DNA from: an uncultured virus (IMG/VR IMGVR_UViG_3300026257_000004) | Taxonomy: Duplodnaviria; Heunggongvirae; Uroviricota; Caudoviricetes | Length of the DNA: 22,870 nt | Reading direction: 5' to 3' (one strand) | IMG/VR virus record: IMGVR_UViG_3300026257_000004 | Shown here: piece by piece, positions 3,964-20,431 of the stretch | Layout: each line of letters opens with the position of its first letter | Numbering within the stretch: position 1 is the stretch's first letter | Made by a program: the position numbers and the translations under genes | The notes under the pieces: generated by a model | What the model was told of the DNA's origin: nothing | What the model saw: the letters and a program-made list of their open reading frames with translations, nothing else | The model's database searches: none

Positions 3964-4641
3964 TCAGACAGAAACCACAGTTTCTTGCCCGCGAGAGTAA
4001 ACAGTAAGCCACTCCGGGATGGGAGGAATAGGTTCCGCTGTTTGAGGCATGACCAGGATGACGACCGAATCGTTATCACCTTGGATCCTCATGGGGCCAC
4101 CATCGAACGCAGAGAGGACCACAGAACTGTTCTGAGCAGTTAACCCCTTAATGGCTTTCTGTAAGTAATTAGCGTCGTACCGACCGGCTGTGGCGCTGGT
4201 TGACGGCAACCCTGACCAACGCTCGAGGATGGCCCTCAAGGTTTGGGCCAGTGGTGGAAACTCAATCGAGCTATAGAGAAGTGGAACCTCTACTCGATCA
4301 TTGGTTGATTTGCGGTGGGTGGTGACGATCGCTGTGTTAGCAGGGGAAGGTGGCTGAGCAGGACATGATTCTGTGATCCGGTTTGATCCGATTGTGATCG
4401 TCCGCTCCGCCGTTTTAATTCCTCTGCATGCCTTAATGAGATCGTTGTTTGGCAGGAGTTGAACCGTCTCGTCACCGCTGCCAACTGGATCAAATGCCAG
4501 GCATGCGATCTTGCCATGATCAGTCGAGGCTACGTAGACGCCACCTCTTGGATCAGGGGAGATTTCTATTGATTGGTACGGGCTGTAGCGCCCAGCAAAT
4601 TCAGCGGCAATCGCAATCAGTGCCGAATTAAGCTGCAACAT
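3964..4641 (-). CDS. DNA sliding clamp (DnaN beta)-like protein, short two-domain form
   Basis: VYVASTDHGKIA resembles the beta-clamp vATDgh motif, and YDANYLQKAIKGL...VVLS...PMRI...VILVMP resembles the clamp C-terminal pattern. It is adjacent to the SSB genes. Confidence 0.6.
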   Translation of the reverse strand: MLQLNSALIAIAAEFAGRYSPYQSIEISPDPRGGVYVASTDHGKIACLAFDPVGSGDETVQLLPNNDLIKACRGIKTAERTITIGSNRITESCPAQPPSPANTAIVTTHRKSTNDRVEVPLLYSSIEFPPLAQTLRAILERWSGLPSTSATAGRYDANYLQKAIKGLTAQNSSVVLSAFDGGPMRIQGDNDSVVILVMPQTAEPIPPIPEWLTVYSRGQETVVSV

Positions 4642-4849
4642 TGATCGCCTCAGCGTGCAGACAGACTGCACCAGTGAGGTTAACTACATCTTCTTCCAGG
4701 TCAACCCAGCGCCATCTATACAGGTTTAGGTCATTCTCAAGGTTTTCGTTTGCTTCTTCTAGTTCTTCTCTTGAGATAGTTGGAGTCCAGTCTGGCGACA
4801 GGGCTCGAGAGTTGAAGATGTGGACGAGGATGGCCTTTCTTTTCTCCAT
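4628..4849 (-). CDS. hypothetical protein
   Basis: 73-aa ORF leading the replication operon. Confidence 0.6.
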   Translation of the reverse strand: MEKRKAILVHIFNSRALSPDWTPTISREELEEANENLENDLNLYRWRWVDLEEDVVNLTGAVCLHAEAINVAA

Positions 4850-4964
4850 ATTTCACAGGTGAGGAGACTAAAGCTAGCTTGATTTGAATGTCAGAGAACT
4901 CATAAATATTTTTAGATCAATAGAATGAGGCGAGACGTTTTCCTTCCACGGAGAAACTAGACTA

Positions 4965-5045
4965 ATGCTCCTCTACTGTGGTGCAGTAATGATATTCGTT
5001 ACGTTATTTATAAGCGATGTATTAGTAGCTGCGACTAGTGAGTGA
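4965..5045 (+). CDS. possible 26-aa hydrophobic peptide
   Basis: MLLYCGAVMIFVTLFISDVLVAATSE, with GGAG upstream at 4950-4953. Confidence 0.3.
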   Translation: MLLYCGAVMIFVTLFISDVLVAATSE

Positions 5046-5151
5046 GCAATCGATAGATGCGTTAGTTATCGCATTGCTAGTGTTTTTAAATTTGTGGATT
5101 ACTGGGAACCTAATCGGCCAGCTCTCCTTTTTGTTCCGGGGGAGATTTTAA
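5038..5151 (+). CDS. possible 37-aa single-TM peptide
   Basis: GTG start overlapping the previous stop; MSEQSIDALVIALLVFLNLWITGNLIGQLSFLFRGRF. Confidence 0.35.
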   Translation: MSEQSIDALVIALLVFLNLWITGNLIGQLSFLFRGRF

Positions 5152-5277
5152 AACGTCCACGCATTCGGTTTGGCACGTCGTGTCTTCCAAAGAGCAGTCC
5201 GAAACGCAGTCAAAGTAGGTGTCGATTGAATCGCCTGCCTCATTTGGCTTTCCTTTCTTACGTGGTTTTGATCCCAT
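5110..5277 (-). CDS. small four-Cys protein (YFDCxxxC..CxxxC), picocyanobacterial/cyanophage type
   Basis: MGSKPRKKGKPNEAGDSIDTYFDCVSDCSLEDTTCQTECVDVLK; GGAG and AGG lie upstream of ATG 5277. Confidence 0.7.
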   Translation of the reverse strand: MGSKPRKKGKPNEAGDSIDTYFDCVSDCSLEDTTCQTECVDVLKSPPEQKGELAD

Positions 5278-5297
5278 TTGCCTAACTCCAAACAGAG

Positions 5298-5329
5298 AAA
5301 AGGCTCGCGGGAGTCCACCCCGCAAGCCC
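5298..5329 (-). terminator. intrinsic terminator closing the structured RNA
   Basis: GGCTTGCGGG-GTGGACT-CCCGCGAGCC-TTTTCTCT on the minus strand. Confidence 0.75.
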
Positions 5330-5575
5330 TAGCCTTCCAACGAAATATTAGCGTCTTGGCCCCGCTAATACTCCGTTCTCGTGATCTGGGGCTTACAGGA
5401 GTGGTAGTTCGCTAATCCACGAAACGACGTTAATGAATCCTCACCCCCTTTAAGGAAGTATTCATTAATGGGCCATACCCTAAGCCCCGTAGTTTCATGG
5501 AAAGCGGAAAGCAACGATTGGGATCGACCATTAATGCATGACATTAACCAATCGCCCTTTCCTCCAAGCCCAGGT
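5298..5575 (-). ncRNA. unclassified highly structured ncRNA (~280 nt)
   Basis: No credible ORF. Stems pair 5557-62/5506-11, 5548-56/5513-21, 5542-47/5531-36, 5481-88/5388-95, 5460-68/5430-38 and 5363-77/5339-53 (15 bp). The G-U wobbles in these stems form only on the minus strand. Possible pseudoknot 5357-62/5470-75. Confidence 0.65.
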
Positions 5576-5578
5576 TGA

Positions 5579-5746
5579 TTAATATCGATAGCGCTGGACG
5601 TCTAAGCGCTTACCATTGACCTTGCAGTAGAAGATTCCTCTGTAGCAGTATTCCTTTACCTTCTTTGATTCATTCTTAACCAGAGTGATTGATTCTGAAC
5701 GGGAGTTAGTTCCTGTGTAGCGGAGTTGAGTAGTGCTTTCAATCAT
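5579..5746 (-). CDS. DUF4278-like YRG peptide (55 aa)
   Basis: MIESTTQLRYTGTNSRSESITLVKNESKKVKEYCYRGIFYCKVNGKRLDVQRYRY contains one degenerate (LRYTG) and one canonical (CYRGIFY) YRG motif. Confidence 0.65.
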   Translation of the reverse strand: MIESTTQLRYTGTNSRSESITLVKNESKKVKEYCYRGIFYCKVNGKRLDVQRYRY

Positions 5747-5748
5747 TG

Positions 5749-5765
5749 GTAGTGGTTGTTACAAT
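5749..5765 (+). promoter_or_regulatory. NtcA box overlapping a -10 element (repression geometry)
   Basis: GTA-gtggttgt-TAC (5749-5762) overlaps TACAAT (5760-5765), which lies about 8 nt upstream of the riboswitch. Confidence 0.65.
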
Positions 5766-5773
5766 AAGGTCAA

Positions 5774-5826
5774 ATCGTCGAGCCTAAACAGGCCGCAACC
5801 TCAGCACCAGACGACGGGGGTGCTGC
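5774..5826 (+). ncRNA. glutamine-II (Downstream-peptide) riboswitch
   Basis: P1 CGTCG(5776-80)/CGACG(5812-16); hairpin GCCT-aaac-AGGC; CGCAA linker; pseudoknot CAGCACC(5802-08)/GGTGCTG(5819-25). It is followed by GGAGG and a YRG peptide, the typical context for this motif. Confidence 0.8.
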
Positions 5827-5842
5827 GTTTGGAGGACGTTCC

Positions 5843-5950
5843 ATGACGACCTTGCGTTCCGTGTTCAACCGTTTCCGAAAGAAGGAGGCAGTTGATCCGC
5901 TTGCCATCTGTACGTACAGAGGCATTCGCTACCGCCCTGGCTCTCGCTAG
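5843..5950 (+). CDS. DUF4278-like YRG 'downstream peptide' (35 aa)
   Basis: MTTLRSVFNRFRKKEAVDPLAICTYRGIRYRPGSR; SD GGAGG at 5831-5835. Confidence 0.8.
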   Translation: MTTLRSVFNRFRKKEAVDPLAICTYRGIRYRPGSR

Positions 5951-5962
5951 TTGAAAGAAGGG

Positions 5963-6056
5963 GTGAACGGCGGCTGACACTTGGCCTGGTTCGACTTGCT
6001 CGCTGAGAGTAGGCCTCGAGCTGGGCCTTGTCTAGGTCTGATGCAAGAGAGTTCAC
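5963..6056 (+). other. long imperfect RNA hairpin
   Basis: GTGAAC/GTTCAC, GACA/TGTC, GGCCTGGTTCGA/TCGAGCTGGGCC and CTTGCTC/GAGTAGG; the G-U pairs favour the plus strand. Confidence 0.4.
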
Positions 6057-6138
6057 GCGCAGTCACAATCCTTTGCGTGCTGTAGCTATTAGTTAATAAT
6101 ATTTAGCGACTACGATAAGAGAAAAGATTAATAGATAA

Positions 6139-6966
6139 GTGCACCATAGGTTTGCAACGCAAAGACTTTTAGCGGAGTTACCTACTATCCCTTTCTCTGC
6201 ACAAGAGATCAGGGCTCTCGCTGAGGCTATACCTAAATCGGTCGCATGGCCCCCAAGAGATCGCCAGTTGTCGGTTGGGCAATACGTTGGGGATCCGTAT
6301 AACGAGAGGCAGATGTTGATGCAGCTTGTGTCAAATACGGAGCCATATCCATTTGAATTATTTCGGCATCCTTCTAGAGCCGTTAATGAAATGGATAGGA
6401 AGAATATTCGAGCTGTGCCCGCCGAACTAGAAGCGCTCGCCAATTTAAGTCCGAGTCGAGTGCAAGAGATTGTATTTGGCTGGGCACACCCTGGATTAGA
6501 TCCCAACGTCCCAGCATCGGTATCAATGGAGAAGATGACTGGAGCTCCTCCGATGGCAGGAGGACTGGCTGAGGCCTTCCCCAATCTCGTAGATCGTGCT
6601 GGTCTTCAGGCTGGTGATCTTCTAGTGAATAGTCCGGTAGGGCTAAACGCTGGTCAGTATGGTCGAGCCAACCTCTATATGGGGGCAGGATTTGGACCCC
6701 CAAGCCGCTTTGGCACGCAGGTGGCTCGAGTGAATACTGCCGGTGGAATAGATCCTGTCTTACTGGCAAATGTTCACGAGGAATTTGCTAGAAGGCAGAA
6801 GATGAAGCATGACACCCCTCATAGGCGTATCAAGACACCAGCTCAAGTAGAAATAGAACGAGCTTTGGCAGAACGTGAATGGCAGTCTATAGAAGATGCG
6901 TTGGGACCTACTGAAGAAGATATGCTGGCGATTATGGCTGAACAGGCTCTGATGGGACCGGGATGA
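6139..6966 (+). CDS. hypothetical protein (plus-strand island, possibly late/virion)
   Basis: 275-aa ORF, Ala/Gly/Pro-rich, with an AT-rich upstream region. Confidence 0.8.
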   Translation: MHHRFATQRLLAELPTIPFSAQEIRALAEAIPKSVAWPPRDRQLSVGQYVGDPYNERQMLMQLVSNTEPYPFELFRHPSRAVNEMDRKNIRAVPAELEALANLSPSRVQEIVFGWAHPGLDPNVPASVSMEKMTGAPPMAGGLAEAFPNLVDRAGLQAGDLLVNSPVGLNAGQYGRANLYMGAGFGPPSRFGTQVARVNTAGGIDPVLLANVHEEFARRQKMKHDTPHRRIKTPAQVEIERALAEREWQSIEDALGPTEEDMLAIMAEQALMGPG

Positions 6967-9401: not shown

Positions 9402-9450
9402 ATGCACTGCTGAAATTGGGCAACAAAAAAGCCCCACTAAATAGCGGGGC
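9402..9450 (-). promoter_or_regulatory. outlying copy of the hairpin + TCAGCnGTGCAT unit
   Basis: GCCCCGCT-attt-AGTGGGGC-TTTTTTGTTGCCCAATTTCAGCAGTGCAT. Confidence 0.75.
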
Positions 9451-9466
9451 AGATCTAACTAAAGTG

Positions 9467-10009
9467 ATGGAAGGCTACTCTTTACTGATGCAACTTTCCG
9501 CGCCAATCAGAGATGATGAGCATTCAGAGAATCTGCTTGTAATCCCTCACGAGGAGCAGGTGATTCCTTGTGGTGGTCTAATCAAGAAGCTCATCACACT
9601 GGCTGCATTCCTTAAGGAGTTGGAGAATCAGTCACATCTCATCCATTTGAACTACGAAGGCTCTAACTTCTTGGAGGTTCATGCCTTCCTGAAGGATCAG
9701 TATGAGGCGCATGTAGAACAGTTTGATGTCATCGGTGAGTTCGTTCGGAGCCTAGATTTCTGGATGCCAATGTGCACCAATGGTTTACGAGAGGCGCTCC
9801 CTTGCTTTCAGCATGTTGATTCTCACGATGGTAGGAAGATGCTGACTATGTACTATCAAAACCTTGAGGACCTGTTGGTTCTTGTTGAAAACATTGAGCC
9901 CACTGCCACTGAACTCAAGGTGCTTGATGTGGCGAATTACATGGCTGAGCTCATGGCTGCAACGAACAAAGCTGCTTGGTTCATCAAGGCAACATTGAGA
10001 GGTTGCTAG
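9467..10009 (+). CDS. dps: Dps/ferritin-like protein
   Basis: HLIHLNYEGSNFLEVHAFLKDQYE..EQFD..GEFVR corresponds to the Dps HWNxxG..F..lH..y......D..AER ferroxidase signature; C-terminal KAAWFIKA. Confidence 0.85.
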   Translation: MEGYSLLMQLSAPIRDDEHSENLLVIPHEEQVIPCGGLIKKLITLAAFLKELENQSHLIHLNYEGSNFLEVHAFLKDQYEAHVEQFDVIGEFVRSLDFWMPMCTNGLREALPCFQHVDSHDGRKMLTMYYQNLEDLLVLVENIEPTATELKVLDVANYMAELMAATNKAAWFIKATLRGC

Positions 10010-16304: not shown

Positions 16305-16841
16305 ATGTCTTTATCGATAGCAAGTAGGGCAAGCATGCTCAATAGAATTAAAGGCCTCGATGAAGCATTGAGGCGTAAGATGGCTGAGCGAGCCTATGAA
16401 GCACGCGCCCGGCAGGTTGCAAACATTGAGGCAGATCTAACTAACCGCATGGGTGCAGTTAGGAATGATGCTGGCTTTGATGAGAATATTCTTCAGAGTG
16501 TTGCCGCCAATATCGGACAGAATATAAAGCGAGATCCTGTAATGGTGGCAAGGGATCTGAGGGATTCATATGGTAAGCCAGGCCTGAGTGATGACAGCCC
16601 GTCCTACAGAGAGGATCTCATTAGGCAGGCTGCAATTCAGGCTGGTGCTGGCCCGATGACAGCATTGCAATCACGGCTATCAGGCACTGGTGGTGGTGAT
16701 CGTGCTGTGCAAGCTGGGGTTTACGGCAGTGGTGTTGCCATGGGTATGACTGCCGCTGGCCAGGCACTGGATGCCTTGCGTGACTACATGCAGGACGGCC
16801 TTGCTCAGATGGAGGAGAGGCAGTCTCCTCTGAGTTCGTAA
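16305..16841 (+). CDS. Ala/Gly-rich hypothetical protein (possible virion protein)
   Basis: 178-aa ORF, first gene of a plus-strand island. Confidence 0.8.
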   Translation: MSLSIASRASMLNRIKGLDEALRRKMAERAYEARARQVANIEADLTNRMGAVRNDAGFDENILQSVAANIGQNIKRDPVMVARDLRDSYGKPGLSDDSPSYREDLIRQAAIQAGAGPMTALQSRLSGTGGGDRAVQAGVYGSGVAMGMTAAGQALDALRDYMQDGLAQMEERQSPLSS

Positions 16842-19169: not shown

Positions 19170-19420
19170 TAGGAGACAACTGCGAGGTGAGGGGTCGAGG
19201 TCTCGAGAGCCTTTTCGGCCTCGGATTTCTCTTGTCTCACTGCATATCCTTGCGCGGTTTTAACGTCGTTGAGAAGTTCGCACAGGAAGTCGATCGTCTC
19301 AGGTGTCGCGTTAGAACCATCGAGGATGTCTCCGTTTGCGTTGACACTTCGTTGGATGAGGTTGAGAACAATTGCTCGGTACTGAGCAAGTTGTTCAACA
19401 CTCTTGTCATAGAAGGTCAT
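19169..19420 (-). CDS. cassette hypothetical protein
   Basis: ATG 1 nt after the motif. Confidence 0.75.
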   Translation of the reverse strand: MTFYDKSVEQLAQYRAIVLNLIQRSVNANGDILDGSNATPETIDFLCELLNDVKTAQGYAVRQEKSEAEKALETSTPHLAVVS

Positions 19421-19483
19421 GATGAATTGCTGATAGAGGACAGTGAAATTGCCCCACCAGCCGAAGCTAGTGAGGCAGAGATA

Positions 19484-20065
19484 TCAAGCAGTAACAAGCT
19501 CTGCCACTGGTTCAGCGGCAGGTTGTACTACTTGCTCAACTTCGGAGGGCTCAGTAACAACCGGTGGCTTGGGCAACGGGTTGATTACTTGGCCGTAGTA
19601 GGAACTTTTGTAAGTTCTACCATCACGGTCCCGGTATGGGAACTCGTAATACTCCACAGCGCAGAGTCGATTATCAGAGGCAAGGATGTCTTCCACTTTC
19701 TGGATGTTTTCATCGAAGAAAGTGATCTTCCTGGAGGGACCGTAAGCACGCTTACCGTTTTCCAGCTTCCTACCCTTAGTCATCGAAACCCGAATAGCTT
19801 TCCGGTTCTTGATGACTGGGTAGTCGACATCTCCCTCTCGATCGCTCATCCAAAGAGCGGTCACGGTCTCATTACGTTGCCCAGCCCCTTCGAGCTGTTC
19901 CGTAAGATCCGCATTCTCCTTAGCAAGCTCCTCGATTCGGGCCTCGAGTTCCGCTTTCTCTGAGGTGAGCTGTGCGATGGTGGGTTTTGCCACGTGAGTA
20001 TCCGGCCTTTCGACCGGGATAGAGATTGGACGACCAAGTGCGACAACTTGGCCAAGCTCAGGCAA
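19484..20065 (-). CDS. coiled-coil + putative OB-fold protein
   Basis: Heptads IAQLTSEKAELEARIEELAKENADLTEQLE, then an SSB-like beta region ending YRDRDGRTYKS; TTG start inferred. Confidence 0.7.
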   Translation of the reverse strand: MPELGQVVALGRPISIPVERPDTHVAKPTIAQLTSEKAELEARIEELAKENADLTEQLEGAGQRNETVTALWMSDREGDVDYPVIKNRKAIRVSMTKGRKLENGKRAYGPSRKITFFDENIQKVEDILASDNRLCAVEYYEFPYRDRDGRTYKSSYYGQVINPLPKPPVVTEPSEVEQVVQPAAEPVAELVTA

Positions 20066-20152
20066 TACACATTGCGAACAATATGCACAGCTGATTGAGC
20101 TCACTAAAAATGCCCCACCCGGTTAAACCGAGCAGGGCAAGTGGTGATGGCG

Positions 20153-20431
20153 CTAGTTAGCTGCCGTCCTTAGTACAGCTGTCATCTTCCGCGCATCCTC
20201 TATATGGGGCTCTACCATCTCACGAATGGTGATCCCGAGGTTGCGCGTCTGCTTGACGAGAAGCCCGAACTCATAGTTATGGACATCCATCCGATTACGA
20301 AAGTCTGTCCAATAGGCCATGGGTGAGATGAAGGTCTTTGAACCATTTACAGGTTCGTATTTGGCCTTCATCTGAGCAAGCTCTGCATTCGCCGCAGCCA
20401 GCTGTTCTTTGAGGGGTAGTTGCTTAGCCAT
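20153..20431 (-). CDS. cassette hypothetical protein
   Basis: 92-aa ORF with GGAGG upstream of ATG. Confidence 0.8.
   Translation of the reverse strand: MAKQLPLKEQLAAANAELAQMKAKYEPVNGSKTFISPMAYWTDFRNRMDVHNYEFGLLVKQTRNLGITIREMVEPHIEDARKMTAVLRTAAN

What the first reader, a model, noticed from the sequence alone, without database searches (positions are those of the whole stretch)
5298..5575. Unclassified ~280-nt multi-stem ncRNA with a possible pseudoknot
Seen (minus strand), domain 1: GGAAAG/CUUUCC, GGCGAUUGG/CCAAUCGUU and UUAAUG/CAUUAA. Domain 2 is closed by GGGGCUUA/UAAGCCCC and encloses UUAAUGAAU/AUUCAUUAA and GUGG/CCAC. Domain 3 is a 15-bp stem, AACGGAGUAUUAGCG/CGCUAAUAUUUCGUU, whose loop GGGCCA complements UGGCCC in domain 2. 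The ends CCUGGGCUU/AAGGCUAGG may pair, and an intrinsic terminator follows. There is no credible ORF, and I cannot match it to tmRNA, RNase P, 6S, SRP, manA or wcaG. It lies directly downstream of a YRG peptide gene in the nitrogen-regulated locus. Inference: a new phage structured RNA (sRNA, protein sponge, ribozyme or large cis element).
Basis: partly seen in the sequence, partly recalled or inferred. Interest (0 to 1): 0.8.

Follow-up and report, generated by a model that had tools for sequence, protein, structure and literature searches.

The report
Structured RNA leader ending in terminator
A very strongly folding, non-coding 280-base stretch sits between a tiny peptide gene and a transcription stop signal in an uncultured marine phage, but only one narrow phage lineage has it, so it looks like a local regulatory or stabilising RNA tail, not a new widespread RNA class.

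Summary
The listed complementary segments are all present on the minus strand of 5298-5575. The stretch folds far better than shuffles (z -6.7, 0 of 200). It is the most structured 280-nt window of 1130 scanned, on both strands. It matches none of 4227 Rfam families and is not coding: a natural 97%-identical variant frameshifts the only ORF.

His domain-2 closing stem, GUGG/CCAC and the end helix have ensemble probability 0.00. A three-way junction (idx 75-160), a 5' hairpin, the 15-bp hairpin and a terminator/antiterminator pair are favoured. The pseudoknot is within chance and is weakened in the variant.

Conservation is very narrow. Apart from one identical contig, only one relative of 73 loci (L016) has any of it. 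L016 keeps the 19-nt leader, the 5' hairpin region and a 27-nt strand, but lacks the junction and has an unrelated hairpin plus terminator. L016 folds no better than shuffles (z -1.8).

Best reading (about 0.45): a lineage-specific cis-acting structured 3' UTR/leader with a leaky or switchable intrinsic terminator, at the head of the leftward early operon. A new trans-acting RNA is not excluded (about 0.15). There is no expression evidence.

The parts
5579..5746 (-). Short ORF 'peptide 2' (55 aa, ...KEYCYRGIFYCKVNGKRLDVQRYRY); its stop codon is 5581-5579, 3 nt before the finding's start
   Evidence: The C-terminal half is conserved in L016 (49% over 43 aa; ORF 914-1078). Only one other relative turned up among 1.84 billion representatives (P0003, 48%). 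No Pfam family at E up to 10.
5561..5579 (-). 19-nt leader (ATCAACCTGGGCTTGGAGG), identical in L016; strand 1 of the alternative helices (P0 with idx 176-190, or with the 3' arm of the terminator)
   Evidence: Alignment. Duplex with idx 175-191 is -20.8 kcal/mol, reached by 11 of 500 shuffles.
5506..5562 (-). 5' hairpin (domain 1, idx 14-70): GGAAAG/CUUUCC, GGCGAUUGG/CCAAUCGUU, UUAAUG/CAUUAA
   Evidence: P1b p 0.90. On window plus L016, 92.9% of 42 cells pair, with 2 pairs changed on both sides and 5 on one side. But L016's own MFE and RNAalifold prefer a different inner pairing, and z is only -2.6 in the window and 0.4 to -0.7 in L016.
5416..5501 (-). Three-way junction (idx 75-160): closing stem UCCAUGAAAC/GUUUCGUGGA, hairpin 89-93/102-106, 16-bp bulged hairpin 108-146. 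This module is absent from L016
   Evidence: Ensemble p 1.00, 0.99 and 0.91. z -5.75 for idx 71-165, 0 of 200 shuffles. L016 has about 14 nt in place of idx 75-162.
5386..5413 (-). Conserved 27-28-nt strand (idx 163-190, AGCGAACUACCACUCCUGUAAGCCCCAG): strand 2.
   Evidence: 89% identical over 28 nt in L016. Antiterminator duplex with idx 247-261 is -27.6 kcal/mol, 0 of 500 shuffles, p 0.97 in the full-length ensemble.
5339..5377 (-).
   Evidence: (I3); p 0.99; z -5.4. No sequence counterpart in L016, which has a 7-10-bp hairpin there.
5298..5330 (-). Intrinsic terminator (13-bp G+C-rich stem, loop 5, then UUUUCUCUGUUU)
   Evidence: z -5.0. At equilibrium it is outcompeted: p 0.03. The best terminator-containing fold is -118.4 against the MFE of -121.5.
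5110..5277 (-). Next gene: a 55-aa Cys-rich protein (phrog_665-like). Its GGAG and ATG follow about 10-20 nt after the terminator's U-tract, so as far as the sequence shows it is reached by read-through
   Evidence: Homologue in L016 at 1412-1585.
5773..5825 (+). Context: Glutamine-II (Downstream-peptide) riboswitch-like element on the opposite strand, upstream of a 35-aa YRG peptide ORF (5843-5950, +); GTA-N8-TAC box at 5749-5762
   Evidence: RF01704 at 27.2 bits (gathering score 33), E 1.2e-4. 28.3 bits in L016. 34.1 bits in L003. GTAN8TAC.

Best explanation
The stretch is the structured, non-coding 3' part of a short promoter-proximal transcript (peptide 2 plus about 280 nt). That transcript heads the leftward (minus-strand) early/replication gene block of an uncultured marine phage. 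It is a cis-acting module of stable hairpins ending in an intrinsic terminator, placed directly in front of the next gene's ribosome-binding site. One 17-nt strand (idx 172-188) can pair with the leader that begins 6 nt after the peptide's stop codon; the terminator hairpin is then free to form. Or it can pair with the 5' arm of the terminator, giving an antiterminator and read-through. The module therefore most likely sets how much transcription continues into the downstream genes, and may modulate it. A ribosome finishing peptide 2 would cover the leader and so favour read-through. The module also gives the short transcript a nuclease-resistant 3' end. Shown: the sequence, the predicted stability, the non-coding status, the terminator motif, the mutually exclusive helices and the gene layout. 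Inferred: transcription, termination, switching and coupling to translation.
For: Stability: z -6.74, 0 of 200 shuffles, and the top of 1130 windows scanned. Non-coding: the 59-aa ORF is frameshifted in a 97%-identical natural variant and is read in a different frame in L016. Terminator motif at 5330-5300; the next gene's GGAG/ATG follows within about 20 nt, and no sigma-70-like promoter was found in 4800-6200. The 5' arm of the terminator has an upstream partner at idx 172-188 of -27.6 kcal/mol, against a shuffle mean of -17.2, sd 2.2, 0 of 500 as good. The terminator state (-118.4) and the antiterminator state (-121.5) lie within 3.1 kcal/mol. At transcript length 244 the leader helix forms (p 0.44-1.00); at length 262 the antiterminator replaces it (p 1.00). 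The leader (19 nt, 100%) and the strand idx 163-190 (89%) are the best-conserved parts in L016. All 7 substitutions and the 1 insertion of the X5 variant fall in unpaired positions or keep the MFE pair: U62C turns G-U into G-C, G102A turns U-G into U-A, and C155U and C185U turn G-C into G-U. L016 has the same order of parts: peptide, leader, hairpin, conserved strand, hairpin, terminator.
Against: There is no transcript evidence. The one RNA run laid (X20) covers only 5790-5839, and its flanking letters do not match the window. The antiterminator complementarity is not conserved in L016 (best duplex -11.5 to -13.3, no better than 483-498 of 500 shuffles). L016's leader helix is no better than chance (230 of 500). 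I formulated the switch after seeing the MFE, so it is post hoc. Blocking the leader barely shifts the equilibrium (-111.9 against -109.4), so any effect would have to be kinetic. The X5 variant rests on one contig at depth 3.4. With DNA parameters both strands fold well. Another promoter may lie in the 260-nt gap 4850-5110, which would limit what the terminator controls.
Confidence: 0.45

Rival explanations
1. It is an independent, trans-acting structured RNA: a 3'-UTR-derived or separately transcribed sRNA, a protein-binding RNA or a ribozyme. It would be released at the terminator and act on host or phage targets.
For: It is exceptionally stable and multi-branched, and in the MFE the 5' and 3' ends pair with each other (idx 5-14 with 263-275), as in many stable ncRNAs. 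There is no Rfam match. In 5 of 60 related loci scanned, a tRNA gene sits in the same slot and on the same strand, 67 nt past the conserved riboswitch block (L005, L025, L030, L032, L034). This position therefore hosts RNA genes in this phage group. The variant's changes are structure-compatible.
Against: The most structured modules (idx 75-160 and 199-237) are missing or replaced in the only diverged relative, so they are not a conserved core. L016's region folds at z -1.82. A covariance model of the conserved 5' part finds nothing else in 73 loci, 444 kb (best other hit E 0.62). Exact-pattern scans of viral contigs and genome contigs, and blastn against 50,697 phage records, found nothing. 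There is no known ribozyme signature and no expression data.
Confidence: 0.15
2. It is largely non-adaptive or DNA-level. One version: one or two palindromic insertions in an intergenic spacer (the 88-nt module has 10-bp terminal inverted repeats, and there is the 15-bp hairpin). The other version: a DNA hairpin or cruciform element such as an origin or recombination site next to the replication genes. Only the terminator would work as RNA.
For: The segments that give the extreme z-score are exactly those absent from L016. The 88-nt difference is bounded by the 10-bp inverted repeat UCCAUGAAAC/GUUUCGUGGA. With DNA parameters both strands fold about equally well (z -6.71 and -5.93). The neighbours are SSB-like and exonuclease genes. 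Distribution is very narrow.
Against: No second copy of any part occurs in the 22.9-kb window or in IMG/VR by an exact 27-mer taken from the module, so it is not an obvious multi-copy element. There are no iterons or direct repeats beyond chance. L016 has 14 unrelated nt at the site, not a clean empty site. With RNA parameters the minus strand is much the better (z -6.7 against -2.9), with 14 G-U pairs against 3. The variant's substitutions avoid breaking pairs.
Confidence: 0.2
3. It is a set of RNA processing or stability sites, such as RNase III or RNase E targets like the irregular hairpins between early genes of T7 (recalled from established knowledge). They would separate the peptide-2 message from downstream messages and protect the 3' ends.
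For: Domain 1 is a hairpin of about 21 bp, interrupted by a bulge and a conserved asymmetric internal loop (UGGUCGAUC). The 16-bp bulged hairpin and the 15-bp hairpin have lengths suited to a double-strand-specific nuclease. The position is between cistrons of an early operon.
Against: There is no sequence or structure model of such sites to test against, and no 5'/3' end data. This reading overlaps with the best explanation and is not a true alternative to it.
Confidence: 0.1

Closest known systems
Leader-peptide transcription attenuators (trpL and pyrBI type; named from established knowledge, no model tested)
   Same: A short ORF is followed by four segments able to form mutually exclusive helices 1:2, 2:3 (antiterminator) and 3:4 (intrinsic terminator), directly upstream of the next gene. 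Segment 1 lies within a ribosome footprint of the ORF's stop codon.
   Different: Segments 1 and 2 are about 165 nt apart and enclose a hairpin and a three-way junction. Segments 2 and 3 are separated by a 15-bp hairpin. There are no runs of regulatory codons. The 55-aa ORF is long for a leader peptide. The antiterminator is not conserved in the one relative. Nothing has been shown experimentally.
Yfr6 of Prochlorococcus (244-nt transcript: Downstream-peptide aptamer plus a 33-codon ORF)
   Same: A short, structured transcript built around a tiny ORF in a glutamine-riboswitch/NtcA context in the marine picocyanobacterial world. It was first taken for a non-coding RNA (passages read in PMC1242208; PMC2864571; PMC6212724).
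   Different: In Yfr6 the structured part is the 5' aptamer. Here the aptamer-like element (RF01704, 27.2 bits) lies on the other strand in front of a different peptide, and the structured stretch is a 280-nt 3' region with no Rfam match.
Cyanophage and marine cis-regulatory RNA motifs in Rfam (manA RF01745, wcaG RF01761, PhotoRC-II RF01717, Glutamine-II RF01704)
   Same: Structured RNAs carried by marine phages next to small or metabolic genes (table and passages of PMC2864571).
   Different: None of them matches 5298-5575, even at E up to 10. Those motifs are 5' UTR elements with hundreds of homologues; this one has two distinct sequences.
Large phage-associated ncRNAs often found near tRNA genes (GOLLD, ROOL; recalled, both are in Rfam)
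   Same: A structured RNA in a phage at a slot that holds tRNA genes in relatives.
   Different: No match to any Rfam model. It is 280 nt against roughly 600-800 nt (recalled), with no conserved core across relatives.

Membership tests
Any Rfam 15 family (4227 models, including tmRNA, RNase P, 6S, SRP, manA, wcaG, known ribozymes, GOLLD, ROOL) | Covariance-model score at or above the family's gathering threshold | tested here: not met
   0 matches in the whole window at gathering score. At E up to 10 there is no match inside 5298-5575 on either strand, and none in the homologous stretch of L016.
tRNA / tmRNA (including permuted two-piece tmRNA) | tRNA-like domain and tag reading frame recognised by ARAGORN | tested here: not met
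   ARAGORN finds 0 genes in the window. It does find tRNA genes in related loci, so the tool works on this group.
Glutamine-II riboswitch (RF01704) | Aptamer consensus and pseudoknot scored by the Rfam model | tested here: not met
   The only match is at 5773-5825 on the plus strand, outside the finding and below the gathering score (27.2 against 33). Nothing matches in 5298-5575.
Leader-peptide attenuator (mechanistic class, not a sequence family) | Intrinsic terminator immediately upstream of the regulated gene | tested here: met
   Terminator-like site at 5330-5300 followed by TTTTCTCTGTTT. The next ORF's ATG is at 5277.
Leader-peptide attenuator (mechanistic class, not a sequence family) | Antiterminator helix mutually exclusive with the terminator, and an anti-antiterminator involving sequence at the end of the leader ORF | tested here: met
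   Idx 172-188 with 247-261: -27.6 kcal/mol, 0 of 500 shuffles. Leader idx 2-16 with 175-191: -20.8 kcal/mol, 11 of 500. State energies are -118.4 and -121.5. These are predictions only.
Leader-peptide attenuator (mechanistic class, not a sequence family) | Conservation of the alternative helices in relatives | tested here: not met
   L016's terminator 5' arm has no upstream partner better than shuffles (483-498 of 500 as good).
Leader-peptide attenuator (mechanistic class, not a sequence family) | Termination that responds to translation of the leader ORF | not testable with these tools
   Needs in-vitro or in-vivo transcription assays.
Conserved structured ncRNA class (the Weinberg/Breaker-type criterion) | Multiple diverged homologues with covarying base pairs | tested here: not met
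   Two distinct sequences only. 2 pairs changed on both sides in the 5' hairpin, not distinguishable from shuffles (254 of 500). The RNAalifold consensus is -25.95 kcal/mol on an alignment that is unreliable beyond column 100. The covariance-model search of 74 sources (the window plus 73 loci) finds only the window, L015 and L016.

The most novel reading that the evidence does not exclude
The stretch is a genuine new phage riboregulator. It would be a bistable RNA of about 280 nt whose terminator and antiterminator conformers are set by translation of the YRG peptide (or by a nitrogen-status ligand or protein binding the three-way junction). That would couple the host's nitrogen state, sensed next door by a glutamine-II riboswitch and an NtcA-type box, to the onset of the phage's replication genes. 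Once released, it would persist as a stable end-paired RNA, in a slot where related phages carry tRNA genes.
Probability: 0.12. Interest if true: 0.65.

Novelty: new variant of a known kind. Interest (0 to 1): 0.33.

Why it matters
If the switch reading holds, it would be a phage-encoded attenuator built from a short-peptide ORF and long inserted hairpins. It sits back to back with a glutamine riboswitch-like element, which hints that some marine phages time early or replication gene expression by the host's nitrogen and translation status. As it stands, the value is mainly negative. The most striking 'new ncRNA' of this window is lineage-specific, lacks comparative support and should not be entered as a new RNA class without transcript data. 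The layout (divergent riboswitch/peptide unit, then peptide 2, structured RNA, terminator, with tRNA genes at the same slot in relatives) marks a variable, RNA-rich hot spot in an uncultured phage group. No relative of this group was found among 50,697 deposited phage records.

Tried and rejected
Known families: Rfam at gathering score and at E up to 10 and ARAGORN found nothing in the stretch.

Coding: the 59-aa ORF 5365-5544 is rejected. It is frameshifted by a 1-nt insertion in the X5 variant. The homologous bases are read in another frame in L016. The three differences in the shared ANYxxCKxQ stretch are all non-synonymous.

Searches for homologues that led nowhere:
- blastn (distant mode) of 5250-5620 and megablast of the whole window against phage records, and tblastn of the 235-aa neighbour.
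- Exact or degenerate patterns in viral contigs and genome contigs.
- Neighbouring small proteins as queries in viral contigs.
- The peptide-2 protein searches gave only itself, a 48%-identical 54-aa protein and one 382-aa hit to its first 27 residues that I took to be spurious.
- blastn and nhmmer of the RNA against 14 IMG/VR loci, and covariance model R1 against 73 loci.
- Earlier findings of this scan: nothing.

Mobile repeat: no second copy in the window.

Pseudoknot GGGCCA/UGGCCC: not supported (chance level; altered in the variant; both partners absent in L016).

Sequencing runs: the RNA run X20 held only a 50-nt piece of the riboswitch region, with flanks unlike the window. It says nothing about expression of this RNA, and parts without cover in the DNA runs say nothing either.

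Pfam: no family for either YRG peptide at E up to 10, so I do not file them under DUF4278.

No whole genome is held for this window.

Full report
WHAT IS THERE

The window looks like the early/replication region of an uncultured marine phage.
- Most ORFs lie on the minus strand. They include an exonuclease (phrog_298, E 1e-25), an SSB-like protein and a ferritin/Dps-like protein.
- No whole genome is held for the window.
- No deposited phage resembles it, either by megablast of the whole window or by tblastn of a neighbouring protein.

On the minus strand the order of parts is as follows.
- A 55-aa ORF, 'peptide 2' (5746-5579), containing CYRGIFY.
- The 278-nt stretch of the finding (5575-5298).
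- An intrinsic terminator at the end of that stretch (stem 5330-5300, then UUUUCUCUGUUU).
- About 10-20 nt later, the GGAG and ATG (5277) of a 55-aa Cys-rich protein (phrog_665-like).

On the plus strand, diverging from peptide 2, there are three features.
- A Glutamine-II riboswitch-like element (5773-5825; RF01704 at 27.2 bits against a gathering score of 33, E 1.2e-4).
- A 35-aa ORF with CTYRGIRY (5843-5950).
- A GTA-N8-TAC box at 5749-5762.

CHECK OF THE OBSERVATION

The end helix has one G-G mismatch. Below, idx means position in the minus-strand RNA, equal to 5576 minus the window coordinate.

The stretch folds far better than chance.
- The minus-strand RNA folds at -121.5 kcal/mol, z -6.74, with 0 of 200 dinucleotide shuffles as good. 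The plus strand reaches z -2.88.
- In a scan of 1130 windows of 280 nt on both strands, the three windows over this stretch rank 1, 2 and 5 after correction for G+C.
- By parts: 5' hairpin z -2.6; idx 71-165 z -5.75; 15-bp hairpin z -5.4; terminator z -5.0.

- His fold scores -88.3 kcal/mol as written and -108.2 after refinement.
- In the ensemble his domain-2 closing stem (88-95:181-188), GUGG/CCAC and the end helix have probability 0.00.
- The helices that are well determined:
  - GGCGAUUGG/CCAAUCGUU, p 0.90
  - a 10-bp stem 75-84:151-160 closing a three-way junction, p 1.00
  - hairpin 89-93:102-106, p 0.99
  - hairpin 108-146, p 0.91
  - the 15-bp hairpin, p 0.99
- The proposed 6-bp pseudoknot is about what chance gives (my estimate, not a tool result). 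Its UGGCCC partner is altered in a natural variant.

With DNA parameters both strands fold well (z -6.7 and -5.9). The case for an RNA on the minus strand therefore rests on three things: G-U pairs (14 in the minus-strand MFE against 3 in the plus-strand MFE), gene orientation, and the terminator.

NOT CODING, NOT A KNOWN RNA

- Rfam 15 gives no hit at gathering score in the window, and none at E up to 10 inside the stretch or in the relative's stretch.
- ARAGORN finds no tRNA or tmRNA.
- The only sizeable ORF (59 aa, 5544-5365) is broken by a 1-nt insertion in a 97%-identical natural variant. In L016 the homologous bases are read in another frame.

RELATIVES

The 235-aa neighbour (3964-4671) brought in 14 IMG/VR loci and 59 metagenome loci. 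They share the downstream block of SSB-like, exonuclease and other genes.

Only two of the 73 loci carry peptide 2 or any part of the stretch.
- L015 is identical over 1051 nt.
- L016 has a neighbour protein at 74% identity.

What L016 keeps and lacks:
- It keeps the 19-nt leader after the stop codon (100%), the 5' hairpin region (about 78-85%) and a 28-nt strand (idx 163-190, 89%).
- In place of idx 75-162 it has about 14 nt. The difference is therefore the whole three-way junction, bounded by its closing stem.
- After idx 190 it has an unrelated short hairpin and an unrelated terminator of similar total length.
- Its region folds no better than shuffles (z -1.82, 11 of 200). Its 5' hairpin region has z 0.4 to -0.7.

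The comparative signal is weak.
- In the 5' hairpin, 92.9% of 42 cells pair on the two sequences, against 36-69% when the partners are slid. There are 2 double and 5 single compatible changes. With two sequences this cannot be told from shuffles (254 of 500).
- L016's own MFE and RNAalifold prefer a different inner pairing.
- A covariance model of leader plus hairpin finds only the window, L015 and L016 in 444 kb (next best E 0.62).
- Pattern scans of IMG/VR and of the species genomes, and blastn against phage records, found nothing.
- Peptide 2 has one credible relative (48% identical, 54 aa) among 1.84 billion representatives; the only other hit covers its first 27 residues in a 382-aa protein.

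NATURAL VARIATION

Of 24 public runs listed, 20 hold part of the stretch. I laid four of them.
- One contig of run X5 (depth 3.4, so a single weak witness) differs by 7 substitutions and 1 insertion inside the stretch.
- None breaks a pair of the MFE. Four fall in loops. The other four are U62C (G-U to G-C), G102A (U-G to U-A), C155U and C185U (G-C to G-U).
- This is suggestive of selection on structure but statistically thin.
- The one RNA run (X20) covered only 50 nt of the riboswitch region, with foreign flanks. There is no expression evidence.

MECHANISM

The 5' arm of the terminator (idx 247-261) has a strong upstream partner, idx 172-188, inside the conserved strand: -27.6 kcal/mol against a shuffle mean of -17.2, sd 2.2, 0 of 500 as good. 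The same strand can instead pair with the conserved leader (-20.8 kcal/mol, 11 of 500).

Two global conformers follow.
- The terminator state (leader helix, junction, hairpins, terminator) is at -118.4 kcal/mol.
- The antiterminator state is the MFE at -121.5 kcal/mol. In it the 3' arm pairs with the leader, so the ends of the RNA are paired.
- At transcript length 244 the leader helix is predicted. At length 262 the antiterminator replaces it at equilibrium.

The leader starts 6 nt after the stop codon of peptide 2. A terminating ribosome would therefore cover it (inference from the known ribosome footprint). That is the logic of a leader-peptide attenuator: translation of peptide 2 favours read-through into the next gene, which has no room for a promoter of its own.

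Points against:
- The antiterminator is absent in L016.
- The energy difference is small and hardly changes when the leader is blocked.
- I framed the idea after seeing the fold.

I therefore commit to the broader statement. The stretch is a cis-acting structured 3' UTR/leader with a leaky or switchable terminator that also stabilises the short transcript (0.45). I treat the translation-coupled switch as its most specific, unproven form.

RIVALS

- A trans-acting stable RNA (0.15). In its favour: the ends pair, and 5 of 60 related loci scanned carry a tRNA gene in the same slot. Against: there is no conserved core.
- Palindromic insertions or a DNA-level element (0.20). In its favour: the modules that give the extreme z-score are exactly those absent from L016, the 88-nt module has 10-bp inverted ends, and both DNA strands fold well. 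Against: no other copies, no clean empty site, and the G-U asymmetry.
- RNase III or RNase E processing sites (0.10). This overlaps with the best explanation.

LITERATURE CONTEXT (passages read, not whole papers)

- The Downstream-peptide (glutamine-II) motif precedes short cyanobacterial ORFs, and Yfr6 is such a transcript of about 250 nt with a short ORF (PMC2864571; PMC1242208).
- In the genome survey of PMC6212724 the motif was restricted to marine picocyanobacteria and mostly linked to IF17-like DUF4278 genes. One such gene carries an NtcA site over its start site.
- This matches the plus-strand unit here and suggests a picocyanobacterial host (inference).
- Neither YRG peptide hits Pfam at E up to 10, so I do not claim family membership.
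- My two literature searches did not turn up a description of an RNA like this one. They were keyword searches and cannot show absence.

VERDICT

The feature is real: non-coding and exceptionally structured. The most structured modules are dispensable in the only relative.

It is best seen as a lineage-specific variant of a known kind, a structured leader/3' UTR with a terminator/antiterminator. Interest is modest until a transcript is shown.

Noticed in passing
window 5749-5950 (+): A plus-strand unit diverges from peptide 2. It has a GTA-N8-TAC box (5749-5762), a Glutamine-II riboswitch-like element (5773-5825; 27.2 bits, below the gathering score of 33) and a 35-aa ORF MTTLRSVFNRFRKKEAVDPLAICTYRGIRYRPGSR (5843-5950). 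The element is also in L016 (28.3 bits) and L003 (34.1 bits, above the gathering score). blastn finds the block in about 17 related loci. The box occurs 3 times in the window, which is no enrichment.
   Followed up: partly
L005 2894-2967, L025 171-244, L032 and L034 1894-1967 (tRNA-Pro GGG); L030 1895-1964 (tRNA-Lys CUU): In 5 of 60 related loci scanned, a tRNA gene lies 67 nt past the conserved riboswitch block, on the same strand as the candidate RNA. That is the slot that peptide 2 plus the structured stretch occupy in the window.
   Followed up: partly
window 5560-5573 and 5823-5836: There is an inverted repeat here (86% complementary). As RNA, the leader CUGGGCUUGGAGGA on the minus strand is nearly the same as the Shine-Dalgarno region CUGCGUUUGGAGGA of the plus-strand YRG peptide. 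A minus-strand transcript starting upstream of 5836 could pair with the leader.
   Followed up: no
window 19361-19640 (-), 20041-20320 (-), 16441-16720 (+): These are the next most structured 280-nt windows in the sliding scan (G+C-adjusted z -3.0, -2.9 and -2.8). They overlap ORFs. I did not examine them.
   Followed up: no
window 6139-6966 (+) and 3964-4671 (-) compared with L016: Strong mosaicism between the window and L016. The 275-aa plus-strand protein is 97.7% identical over 173 aa. The 235-aa protein is 74% identical, peptide 2 is 49%, and the 3' part of the RNA stretch is unalignable.
   Followed up: no
L016 1317-1397 (+): L016 has an extra 26-aa hydrophobic ORF (MEIFFVLAILGASFYAATRMTDTDKN) and an A+T-rich spacer between its terminator and the phrog_665-like gene. 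The window has nothing there.
   Followed up: no
window 4850-5110: A gap of about 260 nt, free of ORFs and A+T-rich, lies between the phrog_665-like gene and the next minus-strand gene (4849-4628). It may hold another promoter. The sigma-70 consensus scan found none, and found a plus-strand terminator-like site at 5056-5075.
   Followed up: no
window 9416-10009 (+): A ferritin/Dps-like protein (Pfam Ferritin E 5.8e-9; phrog_3636 'DNA binding protein' E 1.3e-21) on the minority strand of a phage early region.
   Followed up: no
window 5790-5839, runs X4, X5, X7, X20: Contig depth rises several-fold over the riboswitch block only. Several contigs there have flanks unlike the window, so the same block of about 50 nt sits in other genomes of these samples, including one RNA-library contig.
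   Followed up: no
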